DNA of 64,000 nucleotides from Paramecium tetraurelia (taxonomy: Eukaryota). The notes beneath the pieces are model-generated. The model was not told the origin of the DNA. It did not search any database and saw only the letters and a list, made by a program, of their open reading frames with translations. The position numbers and the translations under genes are program-made. Location of the stretch: NCBI GenBank assembly GCA_000165425.1, contig CT868030.1:248001-312000 (forward strand), written 5' to 3'. Of the stretch, positions 18,001-20,157 are shown one piece after another; position 1 is the stretch's first letter, and every line of letters starts with the position of its first letter.

Positions 18001-20157
18001 TGAATTTTTTAATTTATGAGCCTCATCCACTACGATATATTAGAATGGAATGTTAATGAATATGGCTTAAAAGTCTTACATAAAAACTTCATAACTGGTA
18101 ATCAAGATCTAAAATTTGTAGATTTCAGACGCTTGGAGCACAATACCTTTCATACTAATATCAGTATAGAAAAACTCATATTATCTACATAAGGCTCTAC
18201 CAGCACTACTTTCTTAATCATAATATAGGACAGCATTTAAATTAGTCCATTCTTCAACAGTACGTTTCCAATGTTGTAATGTAGATAATGGAGCTATAAT
18301 TAGAAATGGTCCTCTATAGTTTTCAAAATTATATAAATGATTCAGGAATGCAATTGTCTGTATGGTTTTTCCGAGACCCATTTCATCAGCCAAGATCACA
18401 TTTCTGTCCTCATACCAAGCTCTGATGAGCCAATTCAGACTATCAAGTTAATAATCTCTTAACAATCTTCTATCTTTGTAAATAGTTTGTGTAAGTTAGG
18501 TATATTCATGAGGTGGTTTTCTTTGATTCAAGAAATACAATTAATTTCTAATTTCGCTAATTTAGAGATTTGATAATTTCTTCTTTCGAAGTCCTAATTC
18601 AAAATCCACAAGTGTTTTGTGATTAGAATTTTATTGCATCATAAGATTCCTTGTTTCTTTATCTAAACTTCTATTGAATTACTTAAATTCTTAAATCTTT
18701 TATCTACAATCTATCAAAGATTCAGGTTCCCATGTGGCTTCTAAATAAGACAAGTGTTTCCACTTGACTAAGTACAAGCGATCTGGTTCTTATGACAATT
18801 TTTGAATTTCTTATTCTGTTAAGATTTTAAACTACAAGACATCCATTTATAGCCAATCAAAAGATTTCTCTCCTGGATTCCATGCCTCTATATCTGGATC
18901 AACACTATCCATTTATTATTAGAAATCTTGCATTTCCAATTGCATTTCTTAAGCAACATCAACGTCTTTGGTTTACAGTTATGATCTAAGATAATCTTCA
19001 AGATCAAAAAAGTCTTAATTTTTAATTTCCAATTTTAGGTTCAACTTATCATAGATAATGGATTCAATTTCTGATAGGTTCTCTTAGATTGTGTATTATT
19101 TCTCATCAATAATATTTAGGACATTGAGCACTAATTCATTTATTTTTTCCTTCTTCAATTCAGGCATGATATCATTTCTATGTGCATCATTAACTTTATT
19201 TTTGTATGCTTCTTCATTTATGTACCTTTATTGAGATAATTTTTATTCGTAATTCTTTTTTGCCTCTTCATACCATTAATTAAAGAGTACTATTGCACAC
19301 TCTCTCAAAGTATCGCTAATTTATCTCATTTCACTATTTTCTTGAAATTCTTGATTAGCACTTCTGAATACTGTCCCCAATTCATTCCAGAACTCATTGT
19401 TAGTTTTGTACTATCCCAAATATAAACGATTATTTATGGTGCCAAAATCAAGGATTGCTTTGCTTTCCAAAAAGTACACTCCAAAATGAACTTGATTCCT
19501 ACTAAAATTGAGTAAATGAGACATGACTTTAGTTAGACTCTCTGCCCACTTACCTTTCATTTCGGATCCTTTTTTTGGATGAACAATTGGAAATATTTCT
19601 GTACATGATAATACTCGATCGACTTCTTGAAATGCTGGATCAAAATACTGAGCATCAACAACTTCCTCAAATTCTTCCATAATGCGTTTATCAAACACTT
19701 TATTGAATCGATTGATTTTCTACTTCCCATTCTTCTCGTTAAGGATCTGACCATTATGAATAAATTCAACATACTCTCAATTCATCAAGCCATTCAGTGT
19801 GGAAATAGCTTCGGTCTTTATATTTAACCAAATATTAAAGAGTATCTGTATGTGGCTCTGTTTTTCGCCACAAAATTTGATCAATCTCAGGAACGAATAT
19901 ACGCCTTGATTCACTTTCTAAAGTTGGTTCATTCATTGACTCTTCTTCCTCACTCATAGTAGCTGCATAATTCCTCTTGATCGCTCTGGCAGACCGTCTT
20001 TCATTACTAATTCCATTTTACTCTTCACGGTAGTTTTCTTCTTCCATTAAGTTGTACCTACTAATGTAACTAACATGTTATACTTTCTCTTCTACTTTTC
20101 TCGTAGTCTATCTGATTGTCTATTGGTTGGGTCATTCTCACTTTCTAAATCACTCAT
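15071..20157 (-). CDS. CHD-family SNF2 chromatin remodeller (chromo, bromo-like, ATPase, PHD array, GATA-like finger)
   Basis: [43 protein letters not shown]; chromodomains [10 protein letters not shown] and [16 protein letters not shown]; Cys-rich C-terminus. Confidence 0.93.

What the first reader, a model, noticed from the sequence alone, without database searches (positions are those of the whole stretch)
18690..19890. Bromodomain-like module inserted inside chromodomain 2 of a CHD remodeller
Seen: the second chromodomain starts ([14 protein letters not shown], ~19600-19645) but finishes about 270 aa later ([18 protein letters not shown], ~18720-18785). The insert contains [46 protein letters not shown]. 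Known: this follows the bromodomain pattern DLxTIxxRL..Y....F..D..L.F.NA..YN, and animal/yeast CHDs have no bromodomain. The acetyl-lysine-anchoring YN position appears as EF. Inference: a nested chromo/bromo reader with altered or lost acetyl binding. It may correspond to ciliate bromo-CHDs already catalogued.
Basis: partly seen in the sequence, partly recalled or inferred. Interest (0 to 1): 0.7.

Follow-up and report, generated by a model that had tools for sequence, protein, structure and literature searches.

The report
Disabled bromodomain nested inside CHD chromodomain
This Paramecium chromatin-remodelling enzyme carries an acetyl-reader domain inserted into the middle of a chromodomain, an old design shared with several other protist groups, but in this copy the acetyl pocket is gone while a sister gene keeps it.

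Summary
Confirmed. The gene (- strand, 20157-15071, code 6) is a CHD remodeller identical to P. tetraurelia GSPATT00005981001 and closely related to Tetrahymena CHD1, whose bromodomain is published as lying 'between' the chromodomains and as unique to Tetrahymena. Here the bromodomain sits inside chromodomain 2. Strands beta1 and beta2 are 278 aa apart (10-18 aa in five insert-free CHDs), and in a confident model the two halves overlay CHD4 chromodomain 2 (60 residues, 2.1 A). The same nesting occurs in Cryptosporidium, Chromera, two thraustochytrids and Rhodelphis. The genome holds three such copies and one paralogue with an intact pocket, which instead lacks the C-terminal GATA-like finger; Tetrahymena's protein has both. 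Best reading: an acetyl-blind remodeller produced by division of labour after gene duplication. Binding was not tested. New variant of a known kind; interest 0.55.

The parts
15071..20157 (-). CHD gene, 5 exons, 1660 aa when all four introns (20058-20083, 19747-19774, 15374-15399, 15159-15182) are spliced
   Evidence: With intron 4 retained the translation equals P0023 (1668 aa) exactly; spliced it is 1660 aa like the orthologues. RNA loose ends at 15373 and 15160 mark introns 3 and 4.
19775..19900 (-). Chromodomain 1 core (exon 2; bounds approximate); CHD1 cage positions read Tyr/Arg
   Evidence: Pfam Chromo E=0.003; cage positions
19645..19728 (-). Long helix between the chromodomains
   Evidence: H7-34 in the model
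19603..19647 (-). N-terminal part of chromodomain 2, with strand beta1 at 19623-19603
   Evidence: Strand E42-48; overlay on CHD4 616-677 starts at model residue 34; with the connector, 33 of 33 codons unchanged at protein level in both ohnologues
19549..19602 (-). Conserved connector from beta1 into the bromodomain
   Evidence: 22 residues from the beta1 Arg to the alphaZ Trp in nearly all ciliate-type members
19273..19548 (-). Pseudo-bromodomain (alphaZ, 12-residue ZA remnant at about 19482-19447, alphaA, alphaB, EF at 19350-19345, alphaC)
18886..19272 (-). Acidic helical extension continuing alphaC (129 aa; 30 D/E, 16 K/R); lineage-variable
   Evidence: 52 aa in the intact paralogue; no usable Atlas hit
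18781..18885 (-). Return segment (WNPG..F.WL motif) leading back to chromodomain 2
   Evidence: Conserved in ciliate-type members; no strand directly before beta2
18667..18780 (-). C-terminal part of chromodomain 2 (beta2, beta3, helix)
   Evidence: Pfam Chromo matches only from profile position 16-17 onward
17140..18453 (-). SNF2 ATPase with DEAH motif, and helicase C domain
   Evidence: Pfam E=6.6e-73 and 1.4e-28
15712..16359 (-). NSD-like PHD finger cluster
   Evidence: Pfam PHD_NSD E=2.6e-07 and weaker PHD hits
15287..15373 (-). C-terminal GATA-like finger (CxxC-x18-CxxH)
   Evidence: No GATA hit on the window copy. Relatives hit Pfam GATA at E=0.002-0.003, below cut-off. Atlas score 0.86, a lead only.

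Best explanation
An ancestral CHD6-9-like remodeller of protists acquired a bromodomain in the beta1-beta2 loop of chromodomain 2, giving one chromo/bromo module in front of the ATPase (nesting: shown by alignment and model). Where the pocket is complete, as in Tetrahymena CHD1 and the Paramecium C28 paralogue, it most likely binds acetylated histone tails and ties remodelling to acetylated nucleosomes (inferred). After a duplication in the Paramecium line, the window's clade lost the ZA loop, the anchor Asn and one chromodomain-1 cage aromatic but kept the GATA-like finger; the sister clade kept the pocket and lost the finger (pattern: shown). The dead bromodomain is kept as a load-bearing part: it lets chromodomain 2 close and holds out an acidic helical arm. 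The enzyme is then an acetyl-blind nucleosome remodeller aimed by its PHD cluster, GATA-like finger or partners (inferred).
For: Nesting: gap 278 aa against 10-18 aa in 5 of 5 insert-free CHDs and 127-413 aa in nested relatives; model pLDDT 89.6 with strands 42-48, 324-329 and 338-341; CHD4 616-677 overlays model 34..360 over 60 residues, rmsd 2.1, Z 8.2. Dead pocket: ZA stretch 12 aa against 27, and no Asn, in 17 of 17 clade proteins; the deletion is in unbroken genomic DNA; 88 of 103 residues of bromodomain 6cw0 align to the window model against 103 of 103 for the paralogue. Kept by selection: dN/dS 0.075 and 0.18 against the two ohnologues. Complementary loss: finger in 17 of 17 clade proteins and 0 of 5 intact-pocket proteins, at 3 of the 4 genomic loci; T. 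thermophila CHD1 has both. The two Paramecium clades are sisters, 100/99. Transcribed across the insert.
Against: No binding or remodelling assay exists for any member. The model was built from an alignment that includes intact relatives, and AlphaFold knows both folds. Bromodomain Z-scores of 9-12 are within the range the tool warns can be a common helical arrangement, and Foldseek gave no E<=0.001. The chromodomain overlay is one row, rank 49 of 50. Complementary loss fits division of labour but also two unrelated losses. No intact-pocket paralogue of P. bursaria turned up, so that species may live with the dead copy alone. The two-aromatic chromodomain-1 cage is absent in most non-ciliate members that have intact bromodomains, so its loss need not be tied to the pocket.
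Confidence: 0.6

Rival explanations
1. The remodelled bromodomain surface and acidic arm have a new job: they bind a different ligand (an unmodified basic histone tail, a partner subunit) and actively target the enzyme.
For: Purifying selection. The exact 12-residue ZA remnant is kept from P. bursaria to the aurelia species. The arm is acidic, net about -14, and confidently folded.
Against: The former pocket rim is the least conserved part of the domain: BC loop 3 of 13 and ZA region 7 of 18 identical to P. bursaria, against 12 of 15 in alphaZ and 18 of 28 in alphaA-alphaB. The arm is only 42 of 127 identical.
Confidence: 0.25
2. The domain still binds acetyl-lysine in a non-canonical way.
For: The four-helix fold is intact. 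Bromodomains without the Asn exist (MLL1 in PMC12361904; others recalled).
Against: Both anchors are gone: the ZA-loop Tyr with half the pocket wall, and the Asn. Human MLL1, lacking the Asn, is reported unable to bind acetyl-lysine (PMC12361904).
Confidence: 0.07
3. The insert is a vestige decaying neutrally.
For: Lower conservation than the chromodomain and ATPase (70% against 94-100% to the C213 copy). ZA-shortened forms arose more than once (AU p=1.2e-6).
Against: dN/dS 0.075-0.18; the frame and length are kept in 17 of 17 proteins.
Confidence: 0.05
4. Published view: the bromodomain lies between two complete chromodomains, with beta1 of chromodomain 2 supplied just before beta2.
For: PMC12361904 and PMC7339932 describe it so. 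Pfam stretched its Chromo match over the local upstream segment in one relative, P0032 (positions 2-50).
Against: No strand directly before beta2 in either model. In 10 of 10 proteins the best Chromo stretch starts at profile position 9-17 (for 9 of them that stretch is chromodomain 2). Thraustochytrid members have only a short acidic linker there. The upstream motif matches the CHD4 chromodomain-2 start through an insert-free relative.
Confidence: 0.03

Closest known systems
Tetrahymena thermophila CHD1 (TTHERM_00193800, XP_001017133.2; P0245)
   Same: Chromo, bromo, SNF2, NSD-like PHD cluster; same insertion point and connector; same GATA-like finger.
   Different: Tetrahymena has a full ZA loop, YN and a Tyr/Tyr chromodomain-1 cage; its insert is 413 aa. 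It is published as 'between' the chromodomains and as absent from other eukaryotes (PMC12361904).
Paramecium paralogue GSPATT00031325001 (G000:C28; P0219)
   Same: Same nesting; about 71% identical ATPase; sister clade.
   Different: Intact bromodomain (54.7 bits), Tyr/Tyr cage, 217-aa insert, no GATA-like finger.
Cryptosporidium CHD (C. parvum XP_625755.1; C. ryanae P0087)
   Same: Bromodomain after the beta1 motif of chromodomain 2. Its database name flags a special architecture (the text is cut off, and its ending 'chromo-bromo-chromo-SNF2' is recalled).
   Different: Intact pocket; no PHD or GATA hit.
Human CHD4 / CHD6-9 and yeast Chd1 tandem chromodomains
   Same: Chromodomain-2 fold (overlay), SNF2 motor; review places Tetrahymena CHD1 with CHD6-9.
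   Different: No bromodomain (review Table 2); human CHD1 has the W322/W325 cage (PMC13224165).
Non-canonical bromodomains such as human MLL1 and ASH1L
   Same: Fold kept without the anchor Asn (MLL1 from PMC12361904; ASH1L recalled; ASH1L is the top overlay).
   Different: Here half of the ZA loop is deleted too, and the domain is nested in another reader.

Membership tests
CHD remodellers | Tandem N-terminal chromodomains | tested here: met
   Two Pfam Chromo stretches in P0023; the second is split but assembles in the model
CHD remodellers | SNF2 ATPase plus helicase C with intact Walker motifs | tested here: met
   GLGKT and DEAH present
CHD remodellers | ATP-dependent nucleosome remodelling activity | not testable with these tools
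   Needs biochemistry
Bromodomain fold | Four-helix bundle alphaZ/A/B/C | tested here: met
   H67-79, H101-109, H116-133, H139 onward; Z 11.5, rmsd 2.9, 109 aligned to ASH1L; homology to an intact paralogue
Canonical acetyl-lysine-binding bromodomain | Anchor Asn at the start of the BC loop | tested here: not met
   EF in place of YN
Canonical acetyl-lysine-binding bromodomain | Full ZA loop with its conserved Tyr | tested here: not met
   12 residues against 27; Tyr column empty; 15 fewer residues overlay
Canonical acetyl-lysine-binding bromodomain | Measured acetyl-lysine binding | not testable with these tools
   Needs peptide assays
CHD1-type H3K4me3 reader | Two aromatic cage residues in chromodomain 1 (W322, W325) | tested here: not met
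   Tyr or Phe followed by Arg in 16 of 16 clade proteins that have chromodomain 1; alignment to human CHD1 through the paralogue; cage from PMC13224165
Tetrahymena-CHD1-like bromo-CHDs | Same insertion site, connector, PHD cluster and C-terminal finger; ATPase groups with it | tested here: met
   The direct Paramecium+Tetrahymena node is weak (83/74); the wider 14-row group is 100/99.
GATA zinc finger | CxxC-x17/18-CxxC (recalled) and Pfam cut-off | tested here: inconclusive
   Last ligand is His; sub-threshold hits only in relatives

The most novel reading that the evidence does not exclude
An ancient protist CHD subfamily uses a nested chromo/bromo module as a built-in acetylation switch on the chromodomain gate of the motor, and Paramecium split it into an acetyl-sensing and an acetyl-blind remodeller with distinct roles in somatic transcription or macronuclear development. 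The pocket was switched off independently in two to three lineages.
Probability: 0.25. Interest if true: 0.8.

Novelty: new variant of a known kind. Interest (0 to 1): 0.55.

Why it matters
It corrects two published statements about Tetrahymena CHD1: the bromodomain is inside chromodomain 2, not between the chromodomains, and it is not restricted to Tetrahymena. One reader domain nested in another places an acetyl sensor on the element that regulates the CHD motor (role of the chromodomains recalled). Paramecium supplies a natural matched pair, live pocket and dead pocket, in an RNAi-tractable organism, which makes the untested dual-mark-reading hypothesis directly testable. Pfam misses the domain in the full-length dead-pocket proteins scanned (3 of 3), so bromodomain censuses overlook them.

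Tried and rejected
Annotation artefact for the ZA deletion: rejected, the DNA is contiguous and in frame. Splicing-out of the insert: no joint seen, but reads were at most 58 nt, depth over the insert about 0.3-7, and no joints were listed even for real introns, so this is weak. No indexed holder was on record as RNA. The 49-aa beta1 piece alone found no PDB sequence. Foldseek: no E<=0.001. pdb_via listed only bromodomain-type rows and added nothing on the chromodomain. The helical arm had no usable Atlas hit. The GATA-like finger had no relevant PDB hit. The PHD dN/dS row for C358 (11 codons) is meaningless because that reading frame stops at about residue 1135; ignored. Several dS values against C213 were saturated. 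Single origin of all ZA-shortened forms: rejected. Single origin of the nesting across lineages: not tested, only one insert-free CHD was in the tree and it is unresolved. Paper searches with no paper describing nesting or this gene. Earlier scan findings: none. No complex prediction was run, as acetyl-lysine cannot be modelled there.

Full report
Gene. Under code 6 the region is part of a 1449-aa exon on the - strand. Four GT-AG introns of 24-28 nt give a 1660-aa protein; with the last, in-frame intron retained the translation equals P0023, P. tetraurelia GSPATT00005981001. The order is chromo 1, chromo 2 with insert, SNF2, helicase C, NSD-like PHD cluster, and a CxxC-x18-CxxH finger. Three oligo-dT runs laid 531, 868 and 764 reads on the stretch, with the gene covered in the expected orientation and the insert covered at depth about 0.3-7; some reads carry other letters and probably come from the closest ohnologue.

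The insert is a bromodomain. Alone it scores below Pfam's cut-off (16.8 against 21.7 bits), and it is missed in 3 of 3 full-length Paramecium proteins of this clade scanned. Relatives bridge the gap: P0032 aligns to BRD4 BD1 through the ZA loop and the YN motif, and a paralogue in the same genome and T. thermophila CHD1 score 54.7 and 58.9 bits. An AlphaFold2 model of residues 1-417 of the exon (78 sequences, pLDDT 89.6, pTM 0.77) shows the four helices. Nearly all of the 50 best overlays are bromodomains (best Z 11.5, rmsd 2.9, 109 aligned). The tool warns that helical bundles under Z 13 can be a common arrangement and Foldseek reached only E=0.027, so homology rests on sequence and structure together.

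It is nested, not adjacent. In a hand-picked set of 27 proteins, the gap between the beta1 motif (V/I-D/E-R-V/I-L) and YLVKW was 10-18 aa in the 5 insert-free CHDs, 278 in the window protein and 127-413 in the other nested members; the pattern failed on 2 rows (one of them, the paralogue, is 217). An insert-free relative ties the motif to the start of CHD4 chromodomain 2. In thraustochytrid members the bromodomain and a short acidic linker are nearly all that separates the two strands. In the model, residues 42-48 form a strand, nothing directly before beta2 does (same in the paralogue), and CHD4 residues 616-677 overlay model residues 34 to 360 over 60 positions at 2.1 A (Z 8.2, rank 49 of 50). 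This chromodomain model lacks the strands of chromodomain 1, which lie in the previous exon. The beta1 part and connector are unchanged at protein level in both ohnologues (33 of 33).

The window pocket is disabled. Of 63 aligned rows covering both the beta1 Arg and the bromodomain (redundant orthologues included), 29 have a ZA stretch of 24 or more residues plus Asn, 7 a full loop without Asn, 10 a loop of 16-23 counted residues, and 17 a loop of 12 with no Asn; those 17 are exactly the window's Paramecium clade. The 15-residue deletion removes the PV motif and the conserved Tyr and lies in unbroken genomic DNA. The same reference bromodomain overlays 88 of 103 residues on the window model and 103 of 103 on the paralogue. 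Chromodomain 1 has Arg at the second CHD1 cage position in 16 of 16 clade proteins that include it, against Tyr in 5 of 5 intact-pocket Paramecium and 3 of 3 Tetrahymena proteins; most non-ciliate members also lack an aromatic there. The domain is still constrained: dN/dS 0.075 and 0.18 against the ohnologues, with the former pocket rim the most variable part.

Paralogues. The genome has four nested loci: the window (C47), C358 and C213 with the dead pocket, and C28 with an intact one. The GATA-like finger is found at the first three only and is absent downstream of the C28 gene; among database proteins it is in 17 of 17 dead-pocket and 0 of 5 intact-pocket Paramecium sequences. T. thermophila CHD1 has both features. 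In an ATPase tree of 26 rows, chosen from about 50 by dropping near-identical orthologues, the two Paramecium clades are sisters (100/99) and P. bursaria joins the dead-pocket clade (99/98); the link to Tetrahymena is weak (83/74). So the split predates the bursaria/aurelia divergence. Seven ZA-shortened rows do not form one clade (AU p=1.2e-6), so the pocket eroded more than once.

Range. Nested members with names: Tetrahymena, Ichthyophthirius, Cryptosporidium, Chromera velia, Hondaea, Mucochytrium and Rhodelphis marinus; many more are unnamed. The Rhodelphis record is a single sequence. A shared insertion point, and a shared finger or PHD cluster in several members, suggest one old origin, but this was not tested.

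Mechanism. Shown: architecture, nesting (by alignment and prediction), loss of pocket residues, purifying selection, complementary loss. Inferred from what is known of CHDs (recalled): the tandem chromodomains sit on nucleosomal DNA and gate the ATPase, so a bromodomain in the chromodomain-2 loop would bring an acetyl sensor to that gate. In the window clade the domain most likely persists as a structural bridge carrying a 129-aa acidic arm, leaving an acetyl-blind remodeller (0.6). A new binding role is the main rival (0.25).

Literature. [quoted passage not shown] PMC7339932 and PMC5844071 (passages only) agree on the domain or its grouping. PMC9786623 (passages) says the two Tetrahymena CHDs are essential, macronuclear and present in anlagen, citing a thesis I could not see, and names this gene differently. 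PMC13224165 (passages) gives the W322/W325 cage. Eight searches returned no paper on nesting, on the Paramecium gene or on the wider range. The library lacks most subscription papers, I read no supplements, and Cryptosporidium record names already flag a special architecture, so the wider range was probably noticed by annotators before.

Verdict. Real, and a new variant of a known kind. The bromo-CHD itself is catalogued; the nested topology, the broad range, the ZA-deleted pseudo-bromodomain and the live/dead paralogue pair were not found in print. Interest 0.55.

Noticed in passing
window 15159-15182: The public protein P0023 retains this 24-nt in-frame intron; orthologues and RNA loose ends indicate it is spliced.
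   Followed up: yes
window 20058-20083: Intron 1 ends in TAGTAG, two possible acceptors one codon apart; the annotated and orthologous form uses the second.
   Followed up: partly
window 14397-15050: A cytochrome c-like gene (CAACH motif, label recalled) on the + strand converges on the CHD gene; a poly-A loose end at 15026 and CHD reads reaching 15028-15044 put the two 3' ends next to each other.
   Followed up: no
window 20226-23007, 24245-25269, 12140-13917: Neighbouring frames resemble Vps16, a DEAD-box helicase and a TBC-domain RabGAP (labels recalled, not searched).
   Followed up: no
P0207 (unnamed, 1088 aa): Chromodomain 2 holds a bromodomain followed by a PHD-like finger, a doubly nested form.
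   Followed up: no
P0201 (unnamed, 785 aa): A thraustochytrid-like member whose nested bromodomain also seems to lack the ZA loop and Asn.
   Followed up: no
P0011-P0014, P0038, P0045, P0074: Unnamed relatives with a full ZA loop but Phe in place of the anchor Asn, a possible intermediate state.
   Followed up: partly
P0054, P0098, P0131: Thraustochytrid-type members add an ARID domain after the ATPase.
   Followed up: no
P0049 (Ichthyophthirius): The predicted protein jumps from bromodomain helix B to the ATPase and lacks the second half of chromodomain 2, probably a gene-model error.
   Followed up: no
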